Positions 15,201 to 36,702 of a stretch of 49,024 bases of DNA are shown piece after piece. Origin of the DNA: a virus; UHGV virus genome UHGV-0384005, one strand, 5' to 3'. A program made the position numbers and the translations under genes. Below the pieces are notes generated by a model. It was not told where the DNA came from. It made no database searches and saw only the letters and a program-made list of their open reading frames with translations. How positions within the stretch are numbered: the first letter of the stretch is position 1; every line of letters starts with the position of its first letter.

Positions 15201-16268
15201 TTTCGCGATGATTTCGTAGCCAGTGCGCAGGCCTGTGTTGCCTTTCCCTTCCGCTGATGATTTGCGGTCGTTATCCAGTGTGCAGGTAATTTTTGCGGCC
15301 GGGTACAGGTTCACCAGCTGCTCAACAACATGAATCATGTTATTTGCCGATACGGCGACAACTACGGCATCAAAGCGCTTTTTCGGATCCTTTCTAGTCG
15401 CCAGCCATACTGATGCGCCTGTTGCGAAGCCTTCGGCTACCGCGATATTTTGCGCGCCTTTCAGGTTGCCGATCACGAAGCAGGAACCCACGAAATCACC
15501 GGTGATGACGGCGTTGGTCTGAAATTTACCGCCACGCTTATCAATACGCTGCCAGCCGACTATTTGCCCGTCTTTGCGCCCGTCCAGATGGGACAGAGGG
15601 ATAGCCATATAAGTGGTTGGCCCGCTGCTCCATCTGGCGCTATCGTGACTGGTCACGCGACGTACATCACACGCGCTAAATACGTCACGAATGCCTTTTT
15701 TCACAGCGTAAGGCCATGAACCGTCCTCAGCAGGCGCATGCTCCCAGGCGTGATGGAATGCAAGCCAGCCAAGCAAACGCTCATGGTCTAATTGGTTGTT
15801 TCGTAAGTCATTAATGCGTTGCTGTTCGGCGCGGCGTCTGCGGGCTTCTGCCTGGCGTTCGATGCGGGCGCGTTCTTCTGCTGGCTGTGCGACCACGGTC
15901 GCATGATTTTTTTGTTGGTCACGGCGGTACTCGGAGAAAAGGAAGGAAAACCCACTCCAGGAACCAGCATCACTGCCCTTCTGGACAAAGTTTATAAAGG
16001 GGTAGCTGATGCCGTCTTTGCTGTGTTCCAGGCGCGAATAGATTTCGACGCGGCCTTTGAGGCTCTTTTCCAGTGCTTCTGGCGAAGGGCCATTATAGGT
16101 GGAATAGCGTTCCTGTCCGCCGCGCGGATTCAACTGGATGTTATCAGCACAGGCTGGCCAGTTAATGCCAGCCATCTTTGCCAGCTCTGTTAGCTCATCC
16201 CGTGCAGCTTCAAGCAATGAGAACGGATCGCTGCCAAAGCGATCCGCATAGAATTCTTGTAAGGTCAT
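12264..16268 (-). CDS. repA: Multifunctional replication protein RepA (primase-helicase), N15 RepA-like
   Basis: 1334 aa. Walker A GMGSGKST. Its size and position (between the tel/ant region and cB) match N15 RepA, which I recall as about 1324 aa. Confidence 0.9.
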   Translation of the reverse strand: MTLQEFYADRFGSDPFSLLEAARDELTELAKMAGINWPACADNIQLNPRGGQERYSTYNGPSPEALEKSLKGRVEIYSRLEHSKDGISYPFINFVQKGSDAGSWSGFSFLFSEYRRDQQKNHATVVAQPAEERARIERQAEARRRRAEQQRINDLRNNQLDHERLLGWLAFHHAWEHAPAEDGSWPYAVKKGIRDVFSACDVRRVTSHDSARWSSGPTTYMAIPLSHLDGRKDGQIVGWQRIDKRGGKFQTNAVITGDFVGSCFVIGNLKGAQNIAVAEGFATGASVWLATRKDPKKRFDAVVVAVSANNMIHVVEQLVNLYPAAKITCTLDNDRKSSAEGKGNTGLRTGYEIIAKFNGIKCVYPIFEDDPQLECSDFNDLHKLRGLRETTRQLFGKANRLSTSTDLLTLTLNKLKTIKRDNRRTFAKELLQAVDIGMLTCPVPNSPSDLFKMFCIVLREMDLENVYRATIKDHIARRLNRKCRTAQAPRSFSDRITDPNKRPQHITYKRFETSVMTEEVLQYVQQLQGIVIVRAGMGSGKSTGLLRPLMHDADRGVSVAHRVSLIGGLWEMMTEKKGAKADILHYQDPGYQEMAPYANKLTICINSIVKGCWQPLMRQHDYFGFDEATQGLRAILSGKAMENPVAVFNTLIDALARTELHPIMVDADANDLLVDLAELAMKRREEMGLPAWLQIHVIELPVDVRNRETGEPIRVFYTEKDRIMTEVIKAVELGEKIMLATDSSTFAEDVTATLRQRYPEKKFLCVNQKSKPEPEVEAFTNKPKQMVKKYDGLIYSPSISSGVSIEQKHFDRHFGMFCGEVVPSDAIQMLRRDRTAKEFIIGFDKVRAKRETDPKKIERAFAQALLATAGMNGEVTDVVFDGDRISMGVANTDFTRMKIKAAAIEASARNDYACNMICIMHSDGYKVAPLASDELANSIGKELRKEAREIVWEQTLDLHLNIETPDESEREEILKKRALTLEEQAKLVRWDIENELKIPVNEDNLKFYFDGARDKVRRYETMLLDEVTARRYDREESAINFTYAFKQTGQWQYFVVTAMTREQADEAFQAKHPGITDYKVKATPAVEVGMRGFYALKSAALRQYFIDCGIDPETMTGEATQARMKYARDKLMTDERRDLLNNVLRIGGFMTPKGKPKVPEALFKNICESLGLKTDKRRAREGDKRPTIRFVDPESAAFMMEILENRQEDGLSLQLHKGDKKATEVDHGLDLNIYMDHKTRSTDGQNLDAPHSVISEALATLPVPVPEAWAMTALSDDELATMNTWSPASIAMTFASLYLTEFMDRLSSNELRRLREYITGMATGGYDAPEAFYG
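15644..15657. repeat. Palindrome CGTGACTGGTCACG (family GTGAC-NN-GTCAC), inside repA
   Basis: Identical 14-mer at 22759. Related site at 10134. Confidence 0.35.
15887..15904. repeat. SopB-box-like palindrome GTGCGACCACGGTCGCAt, one arm mismatch, inside repA coding sequence
   Basis: Member of a 5-copy family resembling the F sopC core TGGGACCACGGTCCCA. Confidence 0.55.
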
Positions 16269-16391
16269 TTTTTAGCCTTTCCATGCGAATTATGTTTTTT
16301 TCGGGTTGAAAAAATCCGCAGGAGCAGCCACAATAAACGCACGATCTTCTGAAGGATGCGGTGCTGGTTTTGTGGGTGCTGCTCCTGAAAA

Positions 16392-16421
16392 AGGCCCGAG
16401 TTTGCCGACTCGGGTTTTTTT
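16392..16421. terminator. Bidirectional intrinsic terminator (CCCGAGT-ttgccg-ACTCGGG, A5 upstream and T8 downstream) between cB and the repA promoter region
   Basis: Read directly from the sequence. Confidence 0.5.
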
Positions 16422-16518
16422 TCGTCTTTTTTTCGGCTGCCGCAATCTGATTCAACCGCGATAAATTATAGATCGCATTAAACCAGATTTATAGGCAGCA
16501 ATAAACCCCGTTATTCTT

Positions 16519-17127
16519 TCATCTACCCTCTACCATGAAAGATTTGATCGTACCTACGACCTGATGCACGAATTGAAGATCACTTTTATCATGTATAACC
16601 CGTTGAGAGTTAGCGCTATCTAAGTAGTAGCGCTCATCGTCGAAACGGGCTAATCGCTGAATTGTGATCTCGCCGTTGTTTTCGCAAACTAATACATCCT
16701 CACCCGGTACCGGAGTAAGGGTTGAGTCAACCAGGATTACATCGCCTGGCTGATAGTTTCGCTGAACCTGGTTCCCTATCGTTAACGCATACACGGTATT
16801 CCGCTGGCTAACGAACGGCAGGAATCGTTCTGTGCTGGCAGGTTCTCCTGGCTGCCAGTCTTTATCCGGACCACTCTCTGTCGTACCAATAACAGGAACG
16901 CGGTCTGGATCAGATTCAGTGCCATACAGTATCCATTGCACTGGTTTGCGCAGGCATTTCGCCAGGGCCAGCCCGATTTCCAGCGACGGCATAACGTCGC
17001 CACGTTCTAAGTTTTGGACGCCAGGAAGAGAGATTCCCACACTTTCTGCTACCTGCTTCAGTGTCAGCTTCAGCTCTAAACGGCGTGCTTTCAGTCGTTC
17101 GCCTCGTGTTTTCATACTGTTAATCAT
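16519..17127 (-). CDS. cB: Prophage repressor CB (CI/LexA-like: HTH plus S24-peptidase-type C-terminal domain)
   Basis: 202 aa. N-terminal HTH (LTLKQVAESVGISLPGVQNLERG). Divergent from cro. N15 CB is about 201 aa. Confidence 0.85.
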   Translation of the reverse strand: MINSMKTRGERLKARRLELKLTLKQVAESVGISLPGVQNLERGDVMPSLEIGLALAKCLRKPVQWILYGTESDPDRVPVIGTTESGPDKDWQPGEPASTERFLPFVSQRNTVYALTIGNQVQRNYQPGDVILVDSTLTPVPGEDVLVCENNGEITIQRLARFDDERYYLDSANSQRVIHDKSDLQFVHQVVGTIKSFMVEGR

Positions 17128-17138
17128 AAATGATCTGT

Positions 17139-17202
17139 TTATAGCTGGCTATAAAATTTATAAATTATACCTGGCTTTAATTTGAAGTTATTGGTTATAA
17201 TA
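17139..17202. promoter_or_regulatory. Candidate CB operators in the cB-cro intergenic region. Perfect palindrome TTATAGC-tg-GCTATAA (17139-17154) and two degenerate copies (~17165-17180, ~17187-17202).
   Basis: Read directly from the sequence. The tripartite layout is typical of OR regions. Confidence 0.45.
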
Positions 17203-17207
17203 ATTTT

Positions 17208-17423
17208 ATGAAGCCAGAAGAACTTATCCGCCACTTTGGCGATGTTGAAAAAGCTGCTGAAGGCGTGGGTGTGACACCTTGCGCGGTCTACCAATGGCTG
17301 GCTGCAGGAGTAATTCCCCCTCTTCGGCAAAGCGATATAGAAGTCCGGACGGCTTATCAACTGAAAAGTGATTTCACTGTTCGTCGTGTTGGTAAGAAAG
17401 GTGATGGTCATGGAGCTGAATAA
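17208..17423 (+). CDS. cro: Cro-like early regulator
   Basis: 71 aa, divergent from cB, with an HTH-like GVTPCAVYQW. Confidence 0.7.
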   Translation: MKPEELIRHFGDVEKAAEGVGVTPCAVYQWLAAGVIPPLRQSDIEVRTAYQLKSDFTVRRVGKKGDGHGAE

Positions 17424-18147
17424 CATACGCATTTGGGTATCTACGGCTCTTTCCGACATTCACTACCTCCAACGCGGCATCCTTGAGGTTCAGTTAGAGC
17501 AGCTGCGTCTTGCCAGTTCTGACAGATTCACTGATAAGCCGACCAGAACAATCAGTATAGGAGAGAGTGAAGTCTATGAAATATCTGTTCCTGCCGATCC
17601 GGTTCGTTTTCACGTTGGGAAAACATTTAAGCAATCCTCAATGCTGCTGACTGAATTAGATTTTGCTACCACCAGCTGGCGCAGAGCTATTGGGCAGTTA
17701 AACCGAGAGGAAACAGCATGGTTATATTATTGCTATGGCTGTAAACCTGATTACAACAACGACGTGATTATTTGCCAGTGGCTATGGCTTGATTTTTTAG
17801 TTGCCCATTCGAAGTCCGGATTTAAAAAGATGAAAACGGCAACTAAAAAAAACATGTGGAAATTGACGTATAACAGTATTCAGGAAGTTAAAGCCGAAAT
17901 TATCCGCAATGAACCTCCAGACGAAAAATACGAGGATGAGCATTTTAGTTACTTGCTCAATATATCGGTTGATAGCTGGAGAAAAGATTACAAAAAACGC
18001 TGGTCATTATTGAAATCACGATGCCTTTATCTGAATAAAACCGCATTGCTTAATGCGGCGGAGAAACGTAGTGAAATCATTAACCTCAATAGGGCAGGAA
18101 GTCCCAACCTGCCTGTGCCAGCAGATTATGCACAGGAAACCAGGTAG
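17410..18147 (+). CDS. Putative late-gene antiterminator (Q-like by position, as in N15). Start moved to MELNNIRIW... with an AGGTGA RBS.
   Basis: Immediately follows cro. The call rests on gene order in N15-type immB regions, not on recognised sequence motifs. Confidence 0.35.
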   Translation: MELNNIRIWVSTALSDIHYLQRGILEVQLEQLRLASSDRFTDKPTRTISIGESEVYEISVPADPVRFHVGKTFKQSSMLLTELDFATTSWRRAIGQLNREETAWLYYCYGCKPDYNNDVIICQWLWLDFLVAHSKSGFKKMKTATKKNMWKLTYNSIQEVKAEIIRNEPPDEKYEDEHFSYLLNISVDSWRKDYKKRWSLLKSRCLYLNKTALLNAAEKRSEIINLNRAGSPNLPVPADYAQETR

Positions 18148-18373
18148 GCCAGAGCTTAGGTATTCAGGTGTCCGGAAAGAGTTCATCATCTGGTGCCCTA
18201 CCTGTAACTATCGTACTCATCCGGACACGAACCGACAGGCAGTTATCACAGAGTGGTATTTGTCTAATCAGCCAGGAAATAAGCATATAGAGAAAATATG
18301 GCTTAGACGCTACATGGAAATCAGAGAGGGTGCGACCACGGTCGCACAGGATGATAATGAAAACACCATTTAA
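18131..18373 (+). CDS. Hypothetical small Cys-containing protein (CPTCNY)
   Basis: Internal ATG of ORF 18053..18373. Contains SopB-box copy 18330-18347. Confidence 0.4.
   Translation, partial: HRKPGRPELRYSGVRKEFIIWCPTCNYRTHPDTNRQAVITEWYLSNQPGNKHIEKIWLRRYMEIREGATTVAQDDNENTI
18330..18347. repeat. SopB-box-like palindrome GTGCGACCACGGTCGCAC (perfect)
   Basis: Family of 5. Confidence 0.6.
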
Positions 18374-18557
18374 GCAAGGCCCAATGTCTTTTAAAGACGC
18401 TGAAGATATTTCCAGAACTTACAGAAAGAAAGGCCACAAAGTTGTTATCGCTGATTCTTTCGATAAAAAAGGTGAATACTTTGTTTATGTTCATCTACCT
18501 GAGTCAAGAAAAGAGCCTGTTCCATCACGGACATTTCAACAAAAAATTTGGGAGTAA
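18351..18557 (+). CDS. Hypothetical protein (about 68 aa)
   Basis: ORF in the early operon. Confidence 0.4.
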   Translation: MIMKTPFKQGPMSFKDAEDISRTYRKKGHKVVIADSFDKKGEYFVYVHLPESRKEPVPSRTFQQKIWE

Positions 18558-19174
18558 TCATGTTTAATACGCAAAAGAAGATTTTAAGCATAATTATGGA
18601 AAAGTGGATTAATGGCAGTTATGTCATTATCGACACTGAAACCACGGGGCTAAAAGTTGATGACGAAATCATTGAAATAGCAATTATTAATATGCGTGGT
18701 GATGTATTACTTAACACGCTTGTTAAACCAGTTAATCCCATTCCTCCTGAAGCGACAAAAATTAACAATATCACCAATGAAATGGTCGCCAGCGCGCCTG
18801 TATGGCGTGATGTGTTTCCTTTGGTGAAAGATATCATTTCAAACTATAAGTGGCTGGCCTGGAATTCTCGCTTCGATGCCCGAATGATGGTCCAGACCTG
18901 TGAAAAAGCCGGTGTTTTTGCAGGTATGACGCCCTTATCCATTACCTCAATAGCTACGGCTATCCATACCAGCCACATCGACGCAAAAGCGACTTATGAC
19001 CAGTGGTACGGTGAATTTGACAGCAAGCGGAATAACTTCAAACGGCAAAGCCTGGCCACCGCTGCAGAACGTCACAATGTGTCAGTTAAAGGCGCACACA
19101 GGGCGCTGGCCGACTGCCTGATGGTTCTTGGTGTTTTGAATACTGTATGCCAGCCCCAGGATAAGGGGGAATGA
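18548..19174 (+). CDS. DEDDh 3'-5' exonuclease (DnaQ/epsilon-like)
   Basis: Exo I motif IIDTETTGL, plus downstream H/D motifs (HRALADCL). Confidence 0.8.
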   Translation: MGVIMFNTQKKILSIIMEKWINGSYVIIDTETTGLKVDDEIIEIAIINMRGDVLLNTLVKPVNPIPPEATKINNITNEMVASAPVWRDVFPLVKDIISNYKWLAWNSRFDARMMVQTCEKAGVFAGMTPLSITSIATAIHTSHIDAKATYDQWYGEFDSKRNNFKRQSLATAAERHNVSVKGAHRALADCLMVLGVLNTVCQPQDKGE

Positions 19175-19423
19175 ATGGGAACAAAAACCATTTGGGATGG
19201 GAAAGACCTTCCTCCCATCGGCTGTCAGGTACTAATCAACCTGTCTTCTGTTGGCATGCGGCCATATGAAGTTACTGGTTATGAGGTAAGGCGATCAGTA
19301 AACGAAGTGCAATACCCAGCCTGGCTTTATGTGGTGAACATCAAAGTTAAATCGTCCGATGGAAAGTCAACAAATGAGCGCTTTCTTAATGAAGTTTTCC
19401 CTCTGGACTGGCGCGAGAATTGA
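19175..19423 (+). CDS. Hypothetical protein
   Basis: Tightly packed early-operon ORF. Confidence 0.5.
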   Translation: MGTKTIWDGKDLPPIGCQVLINLSSVGMRPYEVTGYEVRRSVNEVQYPAWLYVVNIKVKSSDGKSTNERFLNEVFPLDWREN

Positions 19424-19659
19424 CCATCATGAGACTGAAAATGAATACGCCAGATGATTCGGTGATAGTCGAAACCAACCTGGTGACGCAGTTCTATCCA
19501 GACCACGAAAGCGGCGGCGAGTTGACGACCATCGAGACAGTTTCGGCTACTGGAGAAACTTTCTCTGTGAAGGTCAAGCATTCGTTTTATCAAGTGGCGC
19601 ATGCGCTGGCTACAGCCTGGAGCGTCGATGAAAAGAAAGCTGAAGGAGCTGCATCATGA
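19420..19659 (+). CDS. Hypothetical protein
   Basis: Overlapping start and stop with its neighbours. Confidence 0.5.
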   Translation: MTIMRLKMNTPDDSVIVETNLVTQFYPDHESGGELTTIETVSATGETFSVKVKHSFYQVAHALATAWSVDEKKAEGAAS

Positions 19660-19955
19660 GCAAAGATGAGAGAAAAGACCTTCACCTTTGGTTTGGGTTG
19701 TCATACGCAGCATTTCTCGTGATGCCGCGCATTGCAATGATGCAAATGCCGGAAGATTGGCAGGAGAAAATGGCCGAGTTGCTCAATCAGTATGATGAAA
19801 CCATTGATACAGCAGCATTTGGCGTAAAAGGCTGCAGAGTTAATGCGTTAACTGGTGACGGAAAGTTAATGAAAATGCCGGAAGAATTATTGAATTACCG
19901 CCACCCACAGCCAGAAACGATAGCGGCGCTTTTACTGCCAAAAGGTGAGGATTAA
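19656..19955 (+). CDS. Hypothetical protein
   Basis: Overlapping start and stop with its neighbours. Confidence 0.5.
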   Translation: MSKDERKDLHLWFGLSYAAFLVMPRIAMMQMPEDWQEKMAELLNQYDETIDTAAFGVKGCRVNALTGDGKLMKMPEELLNYRHPQPETIAALLLPKGED

Positions 19956-19958
19956 CCA

Positions 19959-20210
19959 ATGACAACTAACCACCCTGCACACGGTCCTGTATCACTTGAT
20001 CGCCTGCACCAGATACGCGAAATACTCAGCAAAGCAGCAGCACAAAGTGACGGCGGTAATCTCGGCTACGCAATGGCTGATGCTGTAAAGGTGATTGATG
20101 AAGTGCTGGAACTTCGCACAGCCAGAAACAACCAGTGCTGTCACGGTGCTCTCGATAATGAGGATGGTGTCATTACCTGTCGGTCATGCGGTAAGGAATG
20201 GAATATATGA
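19959..20210 (+). CDS. Hypothetical protein with a C-x2-C...C-x2-C motif
   Basis: ORF; possible zinc ribbon (CCHGALDNEDGVITCRSCG). Confidence 0.5.
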   Translation: MTTNHPAHGPVSLDRLHQIREILSKAAAQSDGGNLGYAMADAVKVIDEVLELRTARNNQCCHGALDNEDGVITCRSCGKEWNI

Positions 20211-20452
20211 ACAATAACAAACTAACAAGCCGGGAAATACGCGCGAAGCGCAAAGGTGGTTCTATCGTGCATGTGCTGGAGCTTACGGAATATGGCTACG
20301 CGCCATCGTCTGGTGCTCTTTGTGGTGATAAGCCTCGCCAAGACCGCTATAGCAGCATGAACCGTGCTGGCTGGTATCGGATGAAAGAGCATGTCGAAAT
20401 TAATTGCCCTAAGTGCCTCAAAATTTTGAGCGGGCGGGAGCAGGCCAAATGA
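20198..20452 (+). CDS. Hypothetical protein (MNNNKLT... start motif, C-terminal CPKC)
   Basis: ATGA-coupled to the upstream gene. Confidence 0.5.
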   Translation: MEYMNNNKLTSREIRAKRKGGSIVHVLELTEYGYAPSSGALCGDKPRQDRYSSMNRAGWYRMKEHVEINCPKCLKILSGREQAK

Positions 20453-20766
20453 CCAATAAACTAACAGAAGGACAATTGCTTTTTCGTCTTCAGGATTTTT
20501 ATGGTGCAGAAAAGGATGCTTTAGCAATTGGAGACTATGAGTTCGCACAGGAATGCTCAGATATTGTGAGTGTTATCCGCGAGCTGCAGGAGCGCCGTAA
20601 ATTCGATCAGGCAAAACTAATCAATAAATTCTATGAACGGTATCCCTTAGATACGTTCAAGAGCGATAGCGAACGCGCGGAGGCGTTGGGCTATTACATG
20701 GCTGGCGCTGAATTGCAGCGTTGCGGGGAATTTATCGTTTATGAGGATGCCGACTGTGATGAATAA
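20449..20766 (+). CDS. Hypothetical protein (MTNKLT... start motif)
   Basis: ATGA-coupled; internal start of ORF 20413..20766. Confidence 0.5.
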   Translation: MTNKLTEGQLLFRLQDFYGAEKDALAIGDYEFAQECSDIVSVIRELQERRKFDQAKLINKFYERYPLDTFKSDSERAEALGYYMAGAELQRCGEFIVYEDADCDE

Positions 20767-21397
20767 CAAACTAACAGACGAGCGCGTGAATCACTATGCG
20801 GAGCATGGATTTATCTGCGGGTATAACCGTCGAGATATTCAAATGATGGCAGTTGAGCTACAGCAACGTCGCCAAGCCGATAAAAATTACTTTATGTATG
20901 GCATTGCCGACCCCGATGGTAAGCCATACCTGGATGAGTTTTGCGTATCAAGCGACCTGGGATTAATGGAAGATGAAGTGTCGGCGCTGAATGATACCTT
21001 TGAAACTGACGGTTATCGCGTCGTGGCGCTGTATACCGTATTACCACTAACTGATAACGAACGCGAAGAACTGCAGAAGTGTCGCCAGTTTGATTTGCGT
21101 GAAAAAGTTCGCGCCGATCATGCTGCGTGGGCGGATAAAACTTTCGGCAGCATAGGTCCTGTTGGGCCACTAAAACACCTCTCTAAAGAAGCGCTGGAAG
21201 CCGCAGCTGCTCCCGGCGACTTTAGCGAATGGGCTGATATGCAATTCCTGTTATGGGATGCGCAACGTCGTGCCGGTATCAGTGATGAGCAGATCACCCA
21301 AGCAATGATTGAAAAGCTGGTTGTGAACAAGGCTCGCAGGTGGCCGGAACCGAAAGATGGTGAGCCGCGTCTGCATATCAAAGAGGTGGCAAAATGA
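20762..21397 (+). CDS. DUF550 / MazG-like nucleotide pyrophosphohydrolase domain protein (MNNKLT... start motif)
   Basis: C-terminal half (GPLKHLSKEALEAA..EWADMQFLLWDAQRRAGISDEQITQAMIEKLVVNKARRWPEP) resembles the dATP/dGTP pyrophosphohydrolase DUF550 family. Confidence 0.5.
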   Translation, partial: NNKLTDERVNHYAEHGFICGYNRRDIQMMAVELQQRRQADKNYFMYGIADPDGKPYLDEFCVSSDLGLMEDEVSALNDTFETDGYRVVALYTVLPLTDNEREELQKCRQFDLREKVRADHAAWADKTFGSIGPVGPLKHLSKEALEAAAAPGDFSEWADMQFLLWDAQRRAGISDEQITQAMIEKLVVNKARRWPEPKDGEPRLHIKEVAK

Positions 21398-24686: not shown

Positions 24687-24704
24687 GTGCGACCACGGTC
24701 GCAC
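24687..24704. repeat. SopB-box-like palindrome GTGCGACCACGGTCGCAC (perfect; arms extend to 10 bp, TCGTGCGACC..GGTCGCACGA)
   Basis: Family of 5. Sits about 20 bp upstream of the candidate late promoter. Confidence 0.6.
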
Positions 24705-24723: not shown

Positions 24724-24752
24724 TTGGCAAAATAGCCTTTTTTAGGTATCGT
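24724..24752 (+). promoter_or_regulatory. Candidate late promoter TTGGCA-17-TATCGT, preceding a short terminated leader
   Basis: Pattern match only. Position is analogous to lambda PR'. Confidence 0.3.
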
Positions 24753-24787: not shown

Positions 24788-24810
24788 TAACCGCCGCCAG
24801 GCGGTTTTTT
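24788..24810 (+). terminator. Intrinsic terminator AACCGCC-gccag-GCGGTTTTTTT (tR'-like position)
   Basis: Read directly from the sequence. Confidence 0.6.
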
Positions 24811-24946
24811 TGTGCCTGAAAAGTGGGCGCGGGATAAGTTGCAGCTCATCCCGCAGTAAACCCATAACCTAGCTATAGGCTAAACCCTAAGCCCACCCGC
24901 GATGCGCATCGCTGGGTTAGCTTACCCAGGCAAAACCATAATAGCC

Positions 24947-27386: not shown

Positions 27387-27605
27387 ATGCGCGGAATAAT
27401 CCCGCTGATTATCTGCGTCGTTTTGGCAGGGTGCGGGATGTCTCCCGCACTCACGCCGATGCTGGAGCCGACGCAATGCGCAGCGGAAAAACCGACGATT
27501 GATATTGTTCATTTAGACGGGTACTTCGTTATATCTGATGACGATATGGGAAGGTTGACCGGATATATTGCCGCACTTGAGTCTGGTTGCGTTGCGCCTA
27601 AATGA
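27387..27605 (+). CDS. Lipoprotein (lipobox LAGC), putative o-spanin
   Basis: Signal peptide plus Cys lipobox. Confidence 0.5.
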   Translation: MRGIIPLIICVVLAGCGMSPALTPMLEPTQCAAEKPTIDIVHLDGYFVISDDDMGRLTGYIAALESGCVAPK

Positions 27606-28985: not shown

Positions 28986-29003
28986 CGTGCGACCACGGTC
29001 GCA
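28986..29003. repeat. SopB-box-like palindrome GTGCGACCACGGTCGCAC (perfect), followed by a T6 run, so terminator-like on the + strand
   Basis: Family of 5. Confidence 0.6.
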
Positions 29004-29094
29004 CGCTTTTTTCTTCTCATCAGAATATCTACGAAACTCTCGTTATCAGGCCGGACATGCGTCTACATACGTAGTCCGCCCGTTCCCTTTAAAA

Positions 29095-30400: not shown

Positions 30401-30407
30401 TTTCGAC

Positions 30408-30842: not shown

Positions 30843-30868
30843 TTGGGACTTTAGTCCCTTTTTTATGG

Positions 30869-32593
30869 GTGGAGTATATGGCGGCATACCCGAGCGTCAA
30901 TCTGGCGAACGCTTATGCACGCGATGTACTAAGCGGGAAAATCCTCGCATGTCGATATATCAAACTGGCATGTCAGCGCCATTTTGATGACCTGAAAAAA
31001 TCACTGGATAAGAACTACCCCTATCAATTCAACAGGGATTTAGCTGAACGTGCATGCAGATTCGTTCAGTTGTTACCCCATTCCAGCGGGGATTTAGCCG
31101 GGCAAAAGTTGATACTGGAACCGTGGCAGAGTTTCATTTTCTGCTCAATTTTTGGGTGGGTAACAAAAACAGATAAAAAGCGTCGGTTTCGCGAAGCGTA
31201 TATCCGGGTAGCCAGGAAAAATGGTAAGTCATTTTTTGCGGCCGGGATTGGCACTTACATGTTTTGCGCTGATGGTGAAAACAGTGCAGAAGTTTATTGT
31301 GGTGCCACGACTATGGCGCAGGCAAAGAAGGTTTTCACCCCAGCTAGGCAAATGGCGGACCGATTACCTTCTCTCCGGGCTAAATTTGATATCTCAGTAT
31401 GGGTGGACAGCCTGACCCGCCCTGATGGTTCCGTATTCGCACCAATGGCAGGGAAACCTGGCGACGGTGACAGCCCGCATTGCGCGATTATTGATGAATA
31501 TCACGAGCATGATACGGATCACATGTATGAAGCGATGACGATGGGGATGGGGGCGCGTTCTCAGCCACTAACACTCATTATCACGACTGCAGGTACATCT
31601 CTTGAATCACCATGTTATGACAAAGACAAAGAGGTAAAAGAGGCTCTCAGCGGCATAGTCAGCAATGAGCGTCTGTTCGGCATGATTTACGAGCTGGATG
31701 ATGGCGATGACTGGACTGACCCTAAAAACCTGATTAAAGCGAACCCCAACCTTGATGTTTCCGTCAAGTACAGCGATTTGGTTGAGTTATTGGAAGTCGC
31801 AAAACAGGTCCCGCGTAAGGTAAATGCCTTCAAAACTAAACGCCTCAACATCTGGGTGTCTGGTAAGTCGGCGTACTACAACATGACGCAATGGCAGGCG
31901 GCGGAAGATAAGTCTCTGCGGTATGAAGATTTTGCCGGCGAGGATTATTACCTCGGTCTGGACCTTGCGCGCCGTCTTGATCTTAATGCCGGCGTTGGTG
32001 TTTTTGTCCGGGAAATCGAAGGCAAAAAGCACTACTACTGCGTAAGCCCGATATTTTGGGTACCTGAAGATACAATCAACAGTACGGATCCGAAAGAAGC
32101 TAAAACTGCTGATCGTTATCGTAAATTCAAAGAAATGGGTGTTCTGGAGGCAACAGATGGAGCAGAGGCAGATTATCGCGAGATTCTGGCCAGCATTATC
32201 GACCTGCAGGACATCCATAAGGTTCGTATCAGCGAGATCCCCATAGACCCTAGCGGAGCAACAGCGCTCAGTCATGAGCTTCAGGATAGCGGTTTTGAAC
32301 CGATTTCCATCCGGCAGGATTACACCAACATGTCTCCACCAATGAAAGAGCTTGAAGCAGCGCTCGCCGGTGGACGCTTCCATCATGACGGAAACCCTGT
32401 TCTGTCATGGTGTATCAGCAATGTCATCGGCAAAACGGTACCGGGTAGCGATGATATCGTCCGACCAACGAAAGGTGACAAGCAGTCAAAAATTGACGGC
32501 GCAACGGCGCTTTTTATGGCTATAGGTCGTGCAATGTTGAATGGCCGGGTGAGTAATTCATCCGTTTACGACGAGGAAGATATAGCATGCTAA
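30869..32593 (+). CDS. Terminase large subunit
   Basis: 574 aa. ATPase plus nuclease domains at the expected position. Confidence 0.9.
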   Translation: MEYMAAYPSVNLANAYARDVLSGKILACRYIKLACQRHFDDLKKSLDKNYPYQFNRDLAERACRFVQLLPHSSGDLAGQKLILEPWQSFIFCSIFGWVTKTDKKRRFREAYIRVARKNGKSFFAAGIGTYMFCADGENSAEVYCGATTMAQAKKVFTPARQMADRLPSLRAKFDISVWVDSLTRPDGSVFAPMAGKPGDGDSPHCAIIDEYHEHDTDHMYEAMTMGMGARSQPLTLIITTAGTSLESPCYDKDKEVKEALSGIVSNERLFGMIYELDDGDDWTDPKNLIKANPNLDVSVKYSDLVELLEVAKQVPRKVNAFKTKRLNIWVSGKSAYYNMTQWQAAEDKSLRYEDFAGEDYYLGLDLARRLDLNAGVGVFVREIEGKKHYYCVSPIFWVPEDTINSTDPKEAKTADRYRKFKEMGVLEATDGAEADYREILASIIDLQDIHKVRISEIPIDPSGATALSHELQDSGFEPISIRQDYTNMSPPMKELEAALAGGRFHHDGNPVLSWCISNVIGKTVPGSDDIVRPTKGDKQSKIDGATALFMAIGRAMLNGRVSNSSVYDEEDIAC

Positions 32594-32766
32594 TGACGTT
32601 TTTGAGTTTTTTTATCGGCCTCGCCGGAGCCGCGTTACTGTCTGCCGGTGCCTGGCTTATCTTACCTGCAGCAGGGCTTATTACTGGCGGTTTGATTTGC
32701 CTGCTGTGGTCTTTTTTAATAGCGAAATCGATGTCCGCCAGCGTAATTAAATCGGGGGGTGAATAA
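32587..32766 (+). CDS. Un-tracked small two-TMD membrane protein (59 aa, MLMTFLSFFIGLAGAALLSAGAWLILPAAGLITGGLICLLWSFLIAKSMSASVIKSGGE), wedged between terL and portal
   Basis: Hand-translated ORF. Its start overlaps the terL stop, and its TAA overlaps the portal ATG (TAATG). Confidence 0.45.
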   Translation: MLMTFLSFFIGLAGAALLSAGAWLILPAAGLITGGLICLLWSFLIAKSMSASVIKSGGE

Positions 32767-34025
32767 TGTTCATTCCCCAGATGTTTCGGGGTAAATCTCA
32801 GTCTGGTGGTGGCTTCTGGCAGACTATGCTGGGTGGTGTGAGTTCCAGCCAGAGCAAAGCGGGAATAATGGTCACACCTGAAACTGCGATGGCGCTATCG
32901 GCGGTCCGCGCATGTGTAACGCTTCTGGCAGAATCGGTGGCGCAGCTGCCGTGTGAACTTTACAGGCGAGGAGCTAACGGAGGCCGTGAACGTGCGACTG
33001 ACCACCCTGTTTATGATCTGATACATTCCCAGCCCAATAAAAAAGACACCTCGTTTGAATACTTTGAGCAGCAGCAGGGCCTGCTCGGGCTGGAGGGGAA
33101 TTGCTACTCGATCATCGACAGGGACGGGAAAGGGTATCCCCGCGAATTAATCCCGGTTAATCCCAAAAAAGTCATCGTCCTGAAAGGGCCTGACGGGATG
33201 CCTTATTATGAACTCCCCGAAATTGGCGAAACGTTGCCAATGCGCATGATGCATCATGTGAAGGTTTTCTCGCTGGATGGTTATATCGGCAGTTCTCCAA
33301 TCCAGACGAACGCCGACGTTCTTGGGCTAAGTCTGGCAGTGGAAGAGCATGCTTCTCAGGTTTTTCGCCGTGGCTGTACGATGAGCGGCGTTATTGAGCG
33401 CCCAAAAGAAGCTGCGACAATCAAAAGCCAGGATGCTATCGACCGCCTGCTGGCAAAGTGGACGGACAGATATTCCGGCGTTAGAAACGCCTTCTCTGTT
33501 GCATTGCTTCAGGAGGGGATGAGCTACAAGCAGTTATCTCAGGACAATGAGAAAGCGCAGCTGTTGCAGTCCCGCCAGTGGGGGGTGGAGGAGGTGTGCC
33601 GGCTCTATAAAATTCCGCCGCATATGGTGCAGATGTTGGCGAAAGCCACGAATAACAACATTGAGCACCAGGGACTGCAGTTTGTGATGTACACGCTGTT
33701 AGCCTGGCTGAAGCGTCATGAAGGCGCATTAATGCGCGATCTGCTTTTACCCAGCGAGCGCGGTGATTTGTACATTGAATTTAATGTTTCTGGCCTGCTG
33801 CGCGGGGATCAGAAGTCACGCTATGAATCTTATGCGTTAGGCCGTCAGTGGGGCTGGTTATCGGTTAATGACATTCGCCGCATGGAGAACCTTCCCCCCA
33901 TCGCCGGAGGGGACAAATACCTGACGCCTCTGAATATGGTCGACAGTGCGAGCATTTTGCCCGGAAATAACAAGCCTACAGCGCAGCAAATGACGGAAAT
34001 TGAAGCCATTCTGGCGAGAGCGTAA
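32766..34025 (+). CDS. Portal protein (HK97 family)
   Basis: 419 aa. Size and position fit; sequence resembles HK97-type portals. Confidence 0.9.
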   Translation: MFIPQMFRGKSQSGGGFWQTMLGGVSSSQSKAGIMVTPETAMALSAVRACVTLLAESVAQLPCELYRRGANGGRERATDHPVYDLIHSQPNKKDTSFEYFEQQQGLLGLEGNCYSIIDRDGKGYPRELIPVNPKKVIVLKGPDGMPYYELPEIGETLPMRMMHHVKVFSLDGYIGSSPIQTNADVLGLSLAVEEHASQVFRRGCTMSGVIERPKEAATIKSQDAIDRLLAKWTDRYSGVRNAFSVALLQEGMSYKQLSQDNEKAQLLQSRQWGVEEVCRLYKIPPHMVQMLAKATNNNIEHQGLQFVMYTLLAWLKRHEGALMRDLLLPSERGDLYIEFNVSGLLRGDQKSRYESYALGRQWGWLSVNDIRRMENLPPIAGGDKYLTPLNMVDSASILPGNNKPTAQQMTEIEAILARA

Positions 34026-34057
34026 AGCAATTCTTCATCATTATTACAGGCTGACTA

Positions 34058-34405
34058 ATGAAATATATCTTCTCTATTGGCGTGGACATACTTGTTCTCG
34101 TCAGCATTGTCATGGGTTTTTACTTAGGAAATGAATCCCTTCTGAACATTCCACATTTCATTGGGTGGTTTGTCGGGGTTGTCAATTTACAGGCTCATTT
34201 AAGTACGAAATCAAAAGAGGGAATGGCGGAAAAATATAAATCGCAGCCACTTTTATTCCGCATATATGACGTTTTGACTGACGTTATTTTTGTGAGCTTC
34301 TGTGCCTATCAGGGGTGGATGTTTATGGCCGCTGTTTATTCAGCAGCTGCATGCCTTAAGGCTGAATTTAAGCATTCGATGGAAAAGAAAATATGCAAAA
34401 AATGA
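34058..34405 (+). CDS. Membrane protein (3-4 TMDs), AT-rich moron inserted between portal and prohead protease
   Basis: Hydrophobic ORF. AT-rich relative to the flanking head genes. Confidence 0.55.
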   Translation: MKYIFSIGVDILVLVSIVMGFYLGNESLLNIPHFIGWFVGVVNLQAHLSTKSKEGMAEKYKSQPLLFRIYDVLTDVIFVSFCAYQGWMFMAAVYSAAACLKAEFKHSMEKKICKK

Positions 34406-35310
34406 TTAACCTGCCGCACCTCGCTCAGATGGTCTTCGGTGTTCCTCACTATGTGACACAGCAGACGATGGACGCAGTGAAAGCGGTTTTACTTCCCCGC
34501 ATTCAGGGAACGGTGACAGACCCAGCCATCACGATGGCGTTAAATCCAGATGATTCGCCATCCCCTGAATATGTTCAGCCAGCAGGGGGTATTGCTGTGA
34601 TACCTGTTCACGGGATACTGGTTCCTCGTCGCGGGCAAATTACAGCGATGTGTACCGAACTGACGAGTTATGAGCGTATCCGCAGCCAGCTGCATTCAGC
34701 ATTAAATGACCCCTCCATCAGTGAAATTGTTCTGGATATCAATTCCGGAGGTGGTGCAGCGGCAGGTTGCAAAGAGCTGGCGGATTATATTTACCAGTCG
34801 CGAGAAACGAAACCGATCACCGCGATTGTGAATTTCAACGCTTTTTCTGCTGCGTATTTCATTGCTTCAGCATGCAGCAAAATCGTCATCAGTCAGACCA
34901 GCGGCGTCGGTTCCATCGGCGTCATCATGGAGCACCTGGATACGTCAAAGCTGGAAGAAAACGTGGGGGTAAAATTTACTGCGCTATACCGGGGAGATAA
35001 CAAAAATAATGCAACGCCACATGCACCGTTGAGCGAATCGGCCCTTGCAATGATCGACAAAATGCTCGACGACATGTACGAAATATTTACCTCATCAGTT
35101 GCCGAATATCGTGGCCTCAAACAGCAGGCAGTCGTTGATACTCAAGCTGGTCTGTATTTCGGTGGCGATGCCATTTCAGCAGGTCTTGCCGATGAAATAT
35201 CGGATCCTCAGTCTGCGATTAATGCCATTGCGGCAAAGTACAAACAACCTCAACAAACCACTTCCATAAAGTTGCAGGCCGCCGCGATGGACCTGCAAAC
35301 CAGAATGTGA
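34393..35310 (+). CDS. Prohead protease (S49/ClpP-like)
   Basis: ILDINSGGGAAAG...SIGVIMEHLD motifs; sits between portal and major capsid. Confidence 0.85.
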   Translation: MQKMINLPHLAQMVFGVPHYVTQQTMDAVKAVLLPRIQGTVTDPAITMALNPDDSPSPEYVQPAGGIAVIPVHGILVPRRGQITAMCTELTSYERIRSQLHSALNDPSISEIVLDINSGGGAAAGCKELADYIYQSRETKPITAIVNFNAFSAAYFIASACSKIVISQTSGVGSIGVIMEHLDTSKLEENVGVKFTALYRGDNKNNATPHAPLSESALAMIDKMLDDMYEIFTSSVAEYRGLKQQAVVDTQAGLYFGGDAISAGLADEISDPQSAINAIAAKYKQPQQTTSIKLQAAAMDLQTRM

Positions 35311-35336
35311 CCCGGCGCTAACGCGTCATTACCAGA

Positions 35337-35364
35337 AAGCAGCCTGTTGGCTGCTTTTTTTATG
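35337..35364 (+). terminator. Stem-loop AGCAGCC-tgtt-GGCTGCT plus a T-run between the protease and major capsid genes (attenuator-like)
   Basis: Read directly from the sequence. Confidence 0.35.
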
Positions 35365-35382
35365 CCAAAAAGAGAGAAAACT

Positions 35383-36669
35383 ATGCCACAGATTGAAGAA
35401 TTACGTCGTCAGCGTGCGGGTATTAATGAACAGGTACAGGCCCTGGCCACGATTGAAACTACCGGTGGAACGCTGACAGCGGAGCAGTTAACCGAATTTG
35501 CCAGCCTGCAGCAGCAGTTCACGGATATCAGCGCCAAAATTGAGCGTCTGGAAGCGGCTGAACGTGCTGCAGCTCTGGTTGCCAAACCGGTTAAAGGCAC
35601 ACAGCATGCTCCTGGTATCAGCGTTAAGGCTGAGCCAAAGCAATATACCGGCGCAGGCATGACCCGTCTGGTAATGTCGATTGCAGCAGCACAGGGTAAC
35701 GTCCAGGATGCCGCAAAATTTGCAGCTGAAGAGCTGAATGACCAGTCTGTCTCGATGGCCATCAACACTGCCGCTGCGTCAGGCGGTGTTCTTATTCCGC
35801 AAAACCTGCACAGCGAGGTGATCGAACTGCTACGCGATCGCACCATCGTTCGTAAGCTGGGCGCGCGATCCATTCCGCTGCCGAACGGTAATATGGCGCT
35901 GCCGCGTCTGGCCGGTGGTGCGACGGCGAGCTACACCGGGGAAGGCAAGGATGCGAAAGTATCCGAAGCCCGCTTTGATGATGTGAAACTCACCGCGAAA
36001 ACCATGATTGCAATGGTGCCAATCTCCAACCAGCTGATTGGTCGTGCCGGCTACAACGTGGAGCAGCTGGTCCTGCAGGATATTCTGACCGCGATCTCTG
36101 TTCGTGAAGATAAAGCCTTTATGCGTGATGACGGTACCGGTGATACGCCTGTCGGTATGAAAGCGCGAGCAACCCAATGGAACCGCCTGCTGCCGTGGGA
36201 AGCTGCTGCAGAGGTTAATCTGCAGACGATTGATGCGTATCTCGACAGCATCATCCTGATGGCGATGGACGGGAACAGCAACATGATCAGCTGCGGCTGG
36301 GGCATGTCGAACCGTACTTACATGAAACTGTTCGGGCTGCGCGACGGGAACGGTAACAAGGTCTACCCGGAAATGGCCCTGGGTATGCTGAAGGGATATC
36401 CGATTCAGCGTACCAGCGCTATCCCGGCAAATCTCGGTGACGGCGGCAAAGAGTCAGAAATTTATTTCGCTGACTTTAATGACGTGGTTATCGGTGAAGA
36501 CGGCAACATGAAAGTGTCGTTCTCGCAGGAAGCCTCCTACCAGGACGGGGATGGCAATCTGGTTTCCGCGTTCTCCCGTAACCAGTCGTTGATCCGTGTG
36601 GTGACGGAGCATGATATCGGCTTCCGTCATCCGGAAGGTCTTGTACTCGGGACAAAAGTGCTGTTTTAA
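35383..36669 (+). CDS. Major capsid protein (HK97 fold)
   Basis: About 428 aa. N-terminal coiled-coil delta-like region then capsid domain. Start moved to MPQIEEL. Confidence 0.9.
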   Translation: MPQIEELRRQRAGINEQVQALATIETTGGTLTAEQLTEFASLQQQFTDISAKIERLEAAERAAALVAKPVKGTQHAPGISVKAEPKQYTGAGMTRLVMSIAAAQGNVQDAAKFAAEELNDQSVSMAINTAAASGGVLIPQNLHSEVIELLRDRTIVRKLGARSIPLPNGNMALPRLAGGATASYTGEGKDAKVSEARFDDVKLTAKTMIAMVPISNQLIGRAGYNVEQLVLQDILTAISVREDKAFMRDDGTGDTPVGMKARATQWNRLLPWEAAAEVNLQTIDAYLDSIILMAMDGNSNMISCGWGMSNRTYMKLFGLRDGNGNKVYPEMALGMLKGYPIQRTSAIPANLGDGGKESEIYFADFNDVVIGEDGNMKVSFSQEASYQDGDGNLVSAFSRNQSLIRVVTEHDIGFRHPEGLVLGTKVLF

Positions 36670-36684
36670 CCGATCCTGCACTCT

Positions 36685-36702
36685 GTGCGACCACGGTCGC
36701 AC
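36685..36702. repeat. SopB-box-like palindrome GTGCGACCACGGTCGCAC (perfect; arms extend to 12 bp, CTCTGTGCGACC..GGTCGCACAGAG)
   Basis: Family of 5. Confidence 0.6.

What the first reader, a model, noticed from the sequence alone, without database searches (positions are those of the whole stretch)
15887..36702. Five dispersed copies of an F-sopC-like SopB box (GTGCGACC-ac-GGTCGCAC): a scattered centromere
There are perfect or near-perfect copies at 15887-15904 (in repA, one mismatch), 18330-18347 (in an early ORF), 24687-24704, 28986-29003 and 36685-36702. Each has the same 8-bp arms and 2-bp AC spacer as the F sopC core TGGGACC-ac-GGTCCCA, with GGG changed to GCG. No sopC-like array lies next to sopAB. 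In N15 the centromere is known to be split into four dispersed inverted repeats that bind SopB; this element appears to carry five. The 18-mer plus flanks is far too long to recur by chance.
Basis: partly seen in the sequence, partly recalled or inferred. Interest (0 to 1): 0.7.

Follow-up and report, generated by a model that had tools for sequence, protein, structure and literature searches.

The report
N15-type dispersed plasmid centromere, five sites
The five scattered 18-bp palindromes are real and are almost certainly the partition (centromere) sites of an N15-like linear plasmid-prophage from Citrobacter; four match the known N15 sites in sequence and position, and the fifth, in the head-gene region, is a small variation also seen in relatives.

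Summary
GTGCGACC-AC-GGTCGCAC occurs five times (four perfect copies, one with one mismatch) against 0.03 expected by chance, and nowhere else in the complete 49.8-kb element.

The window is Citrobacter freundii plasmid NZ_CP032182.1, an N15-like telomere phage-plasmid with telN, telRL, repA and sopAB.

- **Motif:** it is the same as the published SopB-binding sites IR1-IR4 of N15. phiKO2 carries four copies, annotated as "putative plasmid partitioning site".
- **Sites 1-4:** they are positional orthologues of IR1-IR4, lying at 19/24/37/45% of the linear prophage map against 19/24/35/45% in N15.
- **Proteins:** SopB is 81% and SopA 95% identical to the N15 proteins.
- **Co-variation:** the box type tracks the SopB recognition helix. 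GCG boxes go with DRN, and F-like GGG boxes go with SRK.
- **No array:** no sopC array flanks sopAB.
- **Site 5:** it lies between the capsid stop codon and a terminator. It is conserved in two or three related plasmids. Other relatives (KpLi5, 48ST307, a Salmonella plasmid, PY54) carry a head-region box inside the next ORF.
- **Copy number:** the family carries about 4 to 11 boxes.

This is a new member of a known kind, of low to moderate interest.

The parts
15887..15904 (.). SopB box 1 (GTGCGACCACGGTCGCAT). It is the orthologue of N15 IR1, inside repA, where it is read on the minus strand as H-A-T-V-V-A-Q around codons 121-127.
   Evidence: The box occupies the same repA position in N15 (33479) and phiKO2 (37905), and phiKO2 carries the same terminal T variant.
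18330..18347 (.). SopB box 2, the orthologue of N15 IR2. It lies downstream of Q, inside the 3' end of a conserved Lar-like/'QD1' ORF (18053-18373), where it encodes G-A-T-T-V-A-Q.
   Evidence: alignment A1: arms invariant, spacer varies AC/GC/TC/GT; variation biased to third codon positions: 10/27, 5/28, 19/28.
24687..24704 (.). SopB box 3, the orthologue of N15 IR3. It is intergenic and ends 19 bp upstream of the -35 hexamer of the Q-dependent late promoter.
   Evidence: N15 annotates -35/-10 at 41162/41185, just after IR3 at 41124.
24724..24752 (+). Late promoter (-35 TTGGCA at 24724-24729, -10 TATCGT at 24747-24752), followed by a terminator at about 24791-24812. This is context for box 3.
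   Evidence: Aligned to the annotated N15 and phiKO2 late promoters. Assigned by homology only.
28987..29004 (.). SopB box 4, the orthologue of N15 IR4. It lies 30 bp after the cytosine methyltransferase gene and is followed by a T-run, so it also has the shape of an intrinsic terminator.
   Evidence: 16 of 18 box columns invariant while the flanks are about 53% identical; terminator-like hit 28986-29005 followed by CTTTTTTCTT. N15 annotates the equivalent site as a stem-loop.
36685..36702 (.). SopB box 5, with no counterpart in N15 or phiKO2. It sits between the major capsid stop codon (36669) and a separate intrinsic terminator (36726-36745). In this element the palindrome extends to 13-bp arms (ACTCT...AGAGT).
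   Evidence: It lies in an insertion of about 40 bp relative to phiKO2, 48ST307 and the Salmonella plasmid. The insertion is shared with pRHBSTW-00524_3 and K. pasteurii pHNAH8130-2.
3761..4732 (-). sopB (323 aa), the ParB-family centromere-binding protein.
   Evidence: It is 81% identical to N15 SopB and 80% to phiKO2 SopB. Pfam SoPB_HTH matches at E=8.6e-22. F SopB structures 3MKY/3MKW/3MKZ match at E=1e-38. The recognition helix is EGIDRNIITRC and the F-R219 equivalent is conserved.
4735..5898 (-). sopA (387 aa), a ParA Walker-type ATPase with an N-terminal HTH.
   Evidence: It is 95% identical to N15 SopA. Pfam AAA_31 and CbiA match, with a weak MerR-type HTH at residues 42-69.
5926..6005 (-). 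sopAB promoter/operator: three direct CTTTGC hexamers with a 19-bp period, plus inverted GCAAAG copies.
   Evidence: The architecture matches that described for F, N15 and phiKO2 in PMC8465637.
6368..6421 (.). telRL, the 54-bp palindrome that TelN resolves into the hairpin telomeres. It defines the ends of the linear prophage map used to place the boxes.
   Evidence: (27-nt arms, 93% complementary, no gap between them). The adjacent telN (6583-8502) matches all four protelomerase Pfam domains.

Best explanation
The five palindromes are the cis-acting centromere (sopC/parS-equivalent) sites of the type Ia SopAB partition system of an N15-like linear plasmid-prophage. Each box would bind one SopB dimer, with one helix-turn-helix plus the conserved Arg (F R219 equivalent) per 8-bp arm; the 2-bp spacer is not read. 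By analogy with F and N15, bound SopB nucleates a larger SopB assembly, and this partition complex stimulates and follows nucleoid-bound SopA-ATP so that sister plasmids are placed on either side of the division plane. As in N15, the boxes are not arrayed beside sopAB. They are scattered through the replication, early and late regions, at 19-61% of the linear map. Boxes 1-4 are inherited orthologues of IR1-IR4. Box 5 is an extra site, acquired in a ~40-bp insertion after the capsid gene, that puts a centromere beyond the midpoint of the molecule. Some boxes probably have second roles: box 4 as a terminator hairpin, and box 3 as a SopB roadblock or silencer next to the late promoter. What is shown here: the sequence, its position, its conservation and its co-variation with SopB. 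What is inferred: SopB binding, partition activity and any silencing.
For: (1) The motif is far from chance: five sites against 0.03 expected, and the arms occur nowhere else.
(2) It matches the N15 IR1-IR4 sequences used experimentally as SopB binding sites (PMC7205306 Table 4; N15 genome scan) and the four sites annotated in phiKO2.
(3) Sites 1-4 are positional orthologues. They share the same flanking genes, their flanks align, and their fractional map positions are 19.1/24.0/36.7/45.4% against 18.7/24.0/35.2/44.8% in N15.
(4) The boxes are under purifying selection. At site 4 the arms are invariant in seven sequences whose flanks average 53% identity. At site 5 the box is identical in three elements with diverged flanks. 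Only the spacer varies (AC, GT, GC, TC, AT).
(5) The cognate proteins are present. SopB is 81% and SopA 95% identical to N15, with the SoPB_HTH domain and the CTTTGC operator.
(6) Protein and DNA co-vary. Elements with GCG boxes (window, N15, phiKO2) have the SopB helix EG(I/V)DRNI. Elements with F-like GGG boxes (F, PY54, Salmonella plasmid) have ENISRKI. F K191, which is Asn here, is a base-contacting residue (PMC3177203).
(7) No tandem sopC array is present anywhere in the element.
Against: No binding or stabilisation data exist for this element, so everything rests on homology to N15. Box 1 carries one mismatch in the outermost base, though phiKO2, the sister plasmid, PhiR46_1, KpLi5 and 48ST307 share that T at the repA site. 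Box 4 fits an intrinsic-terminator consensus and box 5 sits in a terminator region, so a transcriptional role cannot be separated from a centromere role by sequence alone. Whether a fifth site adds anything to stability is unknown, since N15 and phiKO2 manage with four.
Confidence: 0.9

Rival explanations
1. The palindromes are mainly transcription signals, either RNA hairpins/terminators or operator-like sites that punctuate the early and late operons, and their likeness to sopC is incidental.
For: Box 4 scores as an intrinsic terminator (8-bp stem, CACG loop, T-run), and N15 annotates its IR4 as a putative rho-independent terminator. Box 3 lies just upstream of the late promoter. Box 5 sits 22 nt before a terminator. 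All boxes fold into stable hairpins as RNA.
Against: Boxes 1 and 2 lie inside coding sequences with no conserved T-run. Box 1 would be a hairpin on the antisense strand of repA in this orientation. Box 5 is followed by its own separate, conserved terminator, so a second one is redundant. A terminator needs only a GC-rich stem, yet 16 specific bases are invariant across diverged phages while the loop varies. The arm sequence also switches between GCG and GGG together with the SopB recognition helix, which a terminator role does not predict. In N15 these sites are used experimentally as SopB-binding centromeres.
Confidence: 0.05
2. Boxes 1-4 are the working centromere. Box 5 is a recent, neutral or non-partition copy, for example one carried in on a small insertion, or one used only for SopB-dependent silencing of head genes, and it contributes nothing to segregation.
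For: N15 and phiKO2 lack any head-region box. Box 5 lies in an insertion of about 40 bp that is absent from phiKO2, 48ST307 and the Salmonella plasmid. The extension to 13-bp arms is not conserved in the sister elements.
Against: The box is perfectly conserved in three elements whose flanks have diverged to about 79% identity. Four other relatives independently carry a head-region box at a different spot, inside the next ORF, which argues for selection for a box in this part of the genome. The sequence is identical to the other boxes, so SopB should bind it equally well.
Confidence: 0.2
3. The repeats are targets of another element-encoded DNA-binding or DNA-modifying protein (a repressor, RepA, or one of the three DNA methyltransferases) rather than of SopB.
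For: The element encodes several DNA-binding proteins and methyltransferases. Box 1 lies within repA.
Against: The N15 CB operators are annotated elsewhere, beside the repressor gene, at positions distinct from the IR1-IR4 boxes. The box type tracks SopB helix residues across six systems. In N15 the same sequences form SopB foci in vivo (PMC7205306).
Confidence: 0.02

Closest known systems
N15 dispersed centromere sites IR1-IR4 with N15 SopAB (Ravin & Lane 1999; Grigoriev & Lobocka 2001; sequences in PMC7205306 Table 4)
   Same: The 8-bp arms (GTGCGACC / GGTCGCAC) and 2-bp spacer are identical. The four locations are the same: in repA, after Q in the QD1 ORF, before the late promoter, and after the C5-methyltransferase gene. 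The fractional positions on the linear map match. SopA is 95% and SopB 81% identical. There is no array next to sopAB. The telN/telRL linear-prophage context is the same.
   Different: There is a fifth box in the head-gene region, at 61% of the map, where N15 has none. All spacers here are AC, whereas N15 uses AC, TC, AT and AC. The virion module is HK97/phiKO2-like, not lambda-like. The host is Citrobacter.
phiKO2 (Klebsiella oxytoca) 'putative plasmid partitioning sites' (GenBank NC_005857 annotation; Casjens et al. 2004)
   Same: The motif is the same, including the terminal T variant at the repA site. The four positions are the same. SopB is 80% identical, with an identical DRNIITRC recognition segment. 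The head module is of the same type.
   Different: After its capsid gene phiKO2 has only the terminator, with no box.
Klebsiella telomere phages KpLi5 and 48ST307, E. coli PhiR46_1, Citrobacter pRHBSTW-00524_3, K. pasteurii pHNAH8130-2
   Same: All use the GCG-type box and carry five or more copies in KpLi5, 48ST307, PhiR46_1 and pRHBSTW-00524_3 (5, 7, 5 and 5). pRHBSTW-00524_3 and pHNAH8130-2 have box 5 at the same intergenic spot.
   Different: KpLi5 and 48ST307 place the head-region box inside the ORF after the capsid gene. 48ST307 and PhiR46_1 duplicate the IR3 or IR4 positions. For K. pasteurii pHNAH8130-2 only the capsid region was examined, so its total box count is unknown.
F plasmid sopC (tandem 43-bp repeats, each with TGGGACCACGGTCCCA) and F SopB (PDB 3MKY/3MKW/3MKZ)
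   Same: The protein family and the overall palindrome geometry are the same (7-8 bp arms, 2-bp Pu-Py centre). The base-contacting residues R190, R195 and R219 are conserved. The CTTTGC SopA operator is the same.
   Different: The sites are dispersed single copies, not a tandem array beside sopB. The arm has GCG instead of GGG. F K191 is Asn and S189 is Asp in this SopB.
PY54 (Yersinia) and a Salmonella diarizonae telomere phage-plasmid (NZ_CP117191.1)
   Same: Both are telomere phage-plasmids with many dispersed single boxes (about 10-11 and 7), including sites in repA, after Q and in the head region.
   Different: Their boxes have the F-like GGG core, and their longer ParB (393 aa) carries the F-like SRK helix.

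Membership tests
N15-type dispersed SopB centromere (IR sites) of a type Ia SopAB partition system | Palindromic box matching the N15 IR consensus GTGCGACC-NN-GGTCGCAC | tested here: met
   Five sites with 0-1 mismatch. The N15 genome has the same motif four times. The published IR1-IR4 oligonucleotides are in PMC7205306.
N15-type dispersed SopB centromere (IR sites) of a type Ia SopAB partition system | Sites are single, dispersed and remote from sopAB, with no tandem array | tested here: met
   The sites lie 9.5-30.3 kb from the left telomere, and sopAB is at the right end of the map. TRF and the repeat finder show no array.
N15-type dispersed SopB centromere (IR sites) of a type Ia SopAB partition system | Positional orthology with IR1-IR4 | tested here: met
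   The flank alignments A1-A3 and the fractional map positions agree. Box 5 has no N15 counterpart.
N15-type dispersed SopB centromere (IR sites) of a type Ia SopAB partition system | Cognate SopB with an N15-type DNA-recognition segment encoded in the element | tested here: met
   SopB is 81% identical to N15 SopB. The SoPB_HTH domain matches. The DRNI helix is shared with N15 and phiKO2 and differs from the SRKI helix of the GGG-box systems.
N15-type dispersed SopB centromere (IR sites) of a type Ia SopAB partition system | SopA Walker ATPase with N-terminal HTH and a CTTTGC-hexamer operator | tested here: met
   SopA is 95% identical to N15 SopA. Pfam AAA_31 and CbiA match. The hexamers lie at 5926-6005 and are compared with PMC8465637.
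N15-type dispersed SopB centromere (IR sites) of a type Ia SopAB partition system | Linear plasmid-prophage context (telN and telRL) | tested here: met
   All four protelomerase Pfam domains match. A 54-bp perfect-centre palindrome lies at 6368-6421.
N15-type dispersed SopB centromere (IR sites) of a type Ia SopAB partition system | SopB binds the boxes, and the boxes confer sopAB-dependent stabilisation and incompatibility | not testable with these tools
   This needs EMSA, ChIP-seq and plasmid-loss assays. The only support here is homology and the protein-DNA co-variation.
F-type sopC centromere | Tandem array of 43-bp repeats immediately downstream of sopB | tested here: not met
   No tandem repeat lies downstream of sopB, and none in the window contains the box.
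F-type sopC centromere | Core 5'-TGGGACCACGGTCCCA-3' | tested here: not met
   All five sites differ at two positions (GGG to GCG in each arm), and there are no closer matches in the window.
Rho-independent terminators | GC-rich hairpin immediately followed by a T-run on the transcribed strand | tested here: inconclusive
   Box 4 meets the criterion. Box 5 does not and is followed by a separate terminator. Box 3 lies upstream of a promoter rather than at the end of an operon. Boxes 1 and 2 lie inside ORFs.

The most novel reading that the evidence does not exclude
Telomere phage-plasmids with HK97-type heads have repeatedly and independently gained a SopB box in the capsid/gp7 region. In the Citrobacter and K. 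pasteurii elements it is intergenic, and in Klebsiella, Salmonella and Yersinia elements it lies inside the next ORF. This could mean selection to place a centromere beyond the midpoint of the linear replicon, so that both arms are held in the partition complex. Alternatively it could mean selection to let SopB silence or insulate head-gene transcription in the lysogen. If so, centromere number and placement on a linear replicon would be adaptive rather than an accident of N15 history.
Probability: 0.3. Interest if true: 0.45.

Novelty: new member of a known kind. Interest (0 to 1): 0.25.

Why it matters
The finding mostly confirms that the unusual N15 arrangement, a centromere split into single boxes scattered among phage genes, is conserved in sequence and position in a Citrobacter phage-plasmid. 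It also shows that RefSeq leaves these sites unannotated.

Practical points:
- The element should be partition-incompatible with N15- and phiKO2-type prophages, because the boxes are identical.
- The boxes can serve as a simple diagnostic for this phage-plasmid family.
- The family-wide variation offers natural material for studying ParB-parS specificity switching and why linear replicons use dispersed centromeres. That variation covers 4 to about 11 boxes, two placements of the head-region box, and the GCG/GGG switch coupled to the SopB helix.

None of this overturns current understanding.

Tried and rejected
- **Degenerate or half sites:** I searched the window and the complete record. None exist beyond the five.
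- **Hidden sopC array:** I searched with TRF and the repeat finder. I found only the SopA operator repeats and the telRL-flanking repeats.
- **Site 2 in a spurious ORF:** rejected. The 106-aa ORF is conserved in N15, and variation is biased to third codon positions.
- **Uniform AC orientation of all five spacers:** I asked whether it is meaningful. Relatives mix AC, GT, GC, TC and AT at orthologous sites, so it is not conserved.
- **13-bp arm extension of box 5:** it is not conserved in the sister elements.
- **Primary papers:** I could not read Ravin & Lane 1999 (PMC94163) or Casjens et al. 2004 (PMC355964), because neither is held. Statements about them rest on citing papers and GenBank annotations.
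- **Locus export:** several plasmid loci were not exported to the Python sandbox, so per-locus scans were done with the DNA search instead.

Full report
**1. The observation**

A scan for GTGCGACCACGGTCGCAC with up to three mismatches finds exactly five sites, all with the AC spacer on the + strand:

| Site | Coordinates | Match |
|---|---|---|
| 1 | 15887-15904 | one mismatch, final C to T |
| 2 | 18330-18347 | perfect |
| 3 | 24687-24704 | perfect |
| 4 | 28987-29004 | perfect |
| 5 | 36685-36702 | perfect |

Dinucleotide-preserving shuffles give 0.03 matches on average, and none of 100 shuffles reached the observed number. The 8-mer arms occur nowhere else in the window, so there are no stray half-sites.

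**2. What the element is**

The window is the reverse strand of Citrobacter freundii AR_0116 plasmid unnamed4, NZ_CP032182.1. That record is 49,806 bp and is deposited as circular. The window lacks about 782 bp inside a tail gene. A scan of the full record finds only the same five boxes.

The gene content is that of an N15/phiKO2-type telomere phage-plasmid:
- The protelomerase gene (6583-8502) matches all four TelK Pfam domains.
- A 54-bp telRL palindrome lies at 6368-6421.
- repA lies at 12264-16268 on the minus strand, with cB/cro/Q immunity genes nearby.
- The head and tail genes are HK97-like.
- sopA (4735-5898, minus strand) and sopB (3761-4732, minus strand) lie next to telRL.

SopA is 95% identical to N15 SopA. 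SopB is 81% identical to N15 SopB and 80% to phiKO2 SopB. It carries the SoPB_HTH domain and matches the F SopB crystal structures 3MKY/3MKW/3MKZ.

Upstream of sopA are three direct CTTTGC hexamers with a 19-bp period, plus inverted copies. This is the SopA operator architecture described for F, N15 and phiKO2 (PMC8465637). No tandem sopC-like array exists beside sopAB or anywhere else.

**3. Identity of the boxes**

The N15 genome contains the same motif exactly four times:
- 33479, in repA.
- 35930, after Q.
- 41124, just before the annotated late promoter.
- 45561, after the cytosine methyltransferase gene, where N15 annotates a stem-loop.

These are the IR1-IR4 centromere sites. Their sequences are printed as the oligonucleotides used to build an artificial N15 centromere on which N15 SopB forms foci (PMC7205306 Table 4 and text). 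The IR1 oligonucleotide there reads GTGCGACC, where the genome record reads GAGCGACC. That paper also states that F SopB does not work with the N15 sites, whereas N15 SopB is more relaxed.

phiKO2 has four copies at the equivalent places, and its GenBank record annotates them as "putative plasmid partitioning site". So the motif is more than "F-like with GGG changed to GCG". It is the N15/phiKO2 SopB box itself.

**4. Orthology of sites 1-4**

Flank alignments show that sites 2, 3 and 4 are homologous in context to IR2, IR3 and IR4. Site 1 occupies the same codons of repA as IR1. Measured from the telRL centre, the sites lie at these fractions of the linear map:

| Element | Site 1 | Site 2 | Site 3 | Site 4 |
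|---|---|---|---|---|
| Window | 19.1% | 24.0% | 36.7% | 45.4% |
| N15 | 18.7% | 24.0% | 35.2% | 44.8% |

- **Site 2** lies in the 3' end of a 106-aa ORF (18053-18373). RefSeq did not call this ORF, but it is conserved in N15 (35653-35973). Its variation is biased to third codon positions: 10/27, 5/28 and 19/28 variable sites at codon positions 1, 2 and 3.
- **Site 3** ends 19 bp upstream of the -35 hexamer of the Q-dependent late promoter. The promoter was assigned by alignment to the annotated N15 and phiKO2 promoters.
- **Site 4** is also a good intrinsic-terminator shape.

**5. Evidence that the boxes are selected as protein-binding sites**

At site 4 the arms are invariant in seven sequences whose flanks average only 53% identity. 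Across relatives, the only variation inside the boxes is in the 2-bp spacer (AC, GT, GC, TC, AT) and occasionally the outermost base. This is what a dimer reading the two arms would predict.

Most tellingly, the box type co-varies with the SopB recognition helix:

| Box type | Elements | SopB helix |
|---|---|---|
| GCG | window, N15, phiKO2 | EG(I/V)DRNI |
| GGG (F-like) | F, PY54, Salmonella plasmid NZ_CP117191.1 | ENISRKI |

F K191, which is replaced by Asn here, is one of the four base-contacting residues. The others (R190, R195, R219) are conserved (PMC3177203 and PMC3597684). A pure terminator or hairpin role would not predict this coupling.

**6. The fifth site**

Box 5 lies 15 nt after the major capsid stop codon and 22 nt before a separate, conserved intrinsic terminator at 36726-36745. 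Alignment shows that it sits in an insertion of about 40 bp. That insertion is absent from phiKO2, 48ST307 and the Salmonella plasmid, which go straight from the stop codon to the terminator. It is shared with Citrobacter pRHBSTW-00524_3 and Klebsiella pasteurii pHNAH8130-2. In all three carriers the box is identical while the flanks differ.

Other relatives have a head-region box at a different spot, inside the N-terminal part of the ORF that follows the capsid gene:
- 48ST307 at 27547.
- KpLi5 at 6074, inferred from its position just after the capsid gene, by analogy with 48ST307.
- The Salmonella plasmid at 15060.
- PY54 at 6565.

N15 and phiKO2 have none. On the linear map box 5 lies at 60.8%, which is beyond the midpoint, whereas all N15 boxes lie in the left 45%.

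**7. How common is "five"?**

Box counts at up to two mismatches (PY54 at up to three, with a degenerate S in the core):

| Element | Boxes |
|---|---|
| N15 | 4 |
| phiKO2 | 4 |
| Window | 5 |
| pRHBSTW-00524_3 | 5 |
| E. coli PhiR46_1 | 5 (IR4 region doubled) |
| KpLi5 | 5 in the first 50 of 52.4 kb |
| 48ST307 | 7 |
| Salmonella plasmid | 7 (GGG type) |
| PY54 | about 10-11 (GGG type) |

The exact motif is also widespread in IMG/VR viral contigs. Five boxes is therefore well within the family range.

**8. Mechanism**

- **Shown:** the sequence, its statistics, orthology, conservation, the cognate genes, and the protein-DNA co-variation.
- **Inferred from the F and N15 systems:** each box binds a SopB dimer. 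SopB assemblies on the boxes form partition complexes that interact with SopA-ATP on the nucleoid and segregate sister plasmids.
- **Possible secondary roles, not tested:** termination at box 4, and SopB-mediated occlusion or silencing at the late promoter (box 3) and in the head operon (box 5).
- **From my own recollection, not verified here:** Grigoriev & Lobocka 2001 and later work from the Ravin and Lane laboratories discussed silencing near the IRs and the value of several dispersed sites for linear derivatives.

**9. Verdict**

The modestly new points are:
- the fifth, intergenic head-region box and its alternative placement in relatives;
- the coupling of the SopB helix to the box type across the family;
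- the consistent reading frame (A-T-x-V-A) whenever a box is embedded in a gene.

I rate it as a new member of a known kind, with interest 0.25.

Noticed in passing
window 15887-15904 (minus strand), 18330-18347; L126 27547; L124 15060; L125 6565: Whenever a SopB box lies inside a gene it is read in the same frame, GCG-ACC-NNG-GTC-GCA, giving A-T-x-V-A. Examples are RepA HATVVAQ, the QD1/Lar-like ORF GATTVAQ and Klebsiella gp7-like HATVVAQ. The GGG-type boxes give G-T-x-V-P in the Salmonella plasmid and PY54. This suggests that only this frame is tolerated in proteins.
   Followed up: partly
window 18053-18373 (+): A 106-aa ORF overlaps the 3' end of Q and contains box 2. It has a CPxC zinc-ribbon-like motif and corresponds to 'orf QD1' in N15-type records and to a Lar-like ORF in PY54. 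RefSeq does not annotate it in this plasmid, but it is conserved in N15 and shows variation biased to third codon positions.
   Followed up: partly
window 3761-4732 (sopB) compared with L001, L003, L124, L125 and F SopB: The start of the SopB recognition helix switches between DRN and SRK in step with the box core, GCG versus GGG. This is a natural specificity switch at the F S189/K191 positions.
   Followed up: yes
window 36640-36770; L004 24243-24405; L128 640-810: Box 5 sits in an insertion of about 40 bp between the capsid stop codon and a conserved terminator. Other relatives instead carry a head-region box inside the following ORF, so the same genome region has two alternative placements.
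   Followed up: yes
window 28986-29014: Box 4 plus its flanking C/G and the downstream CTTTTTTCTT fits an intrinsic terminator. It may serve both as a centromere site and as the terminator of the methyltransferase operon. N15 annotates its IR4 only as a stem-loop.
   Followed up: partly
window 5926-6005: The sopAB operator has three direct CTTTGC hexamers with a 19-bp period followed by inverted GCAAAG copies, the same layout as the F, N15 and phiKO2 ParA-binding promoter.
   Followed up: partly
window 6270-6560: The telRL palindrome (6368-6421) is flanked on both sides by inverted copies of a roughly 14-16-bp repeat (ATTATCATAACACAAT / ATTGTGTTATGATAAT and variants). These are presumably accessory TelN or regulatory sites, as in N15 tos.
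   Followed up: no
L126 15132-15196 and 18426-18597; L127 17793-18030: Klebsiella phage 48ST307 has two boxes 47 bp apart at the IR3 position and two near the IR4 position. E. coli PhiR46_1 has two boxes 220 bp apart at the IR4 position. These are local duplications of centromere sites.
   Followed up: no
window vs NZ_CP032182.1: The coordinate sums for window and record differ by one between the repA region and the sopB region, and identity is 99.9% over 36300-37100. The window is therefore not byte-identical to the RefSeq record and carries at least one small indel or mismatch.
   Followed up: no
N15 L001 33479 vs PMC7205306 Table 4: The N15 reference genome has GAGCGACC in the left arm of IR1, whereas the published IR1 oligonucleotide reads GTGCGACC. 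This is either sequence variation or a deliberate idealisation.
   Followed up: no
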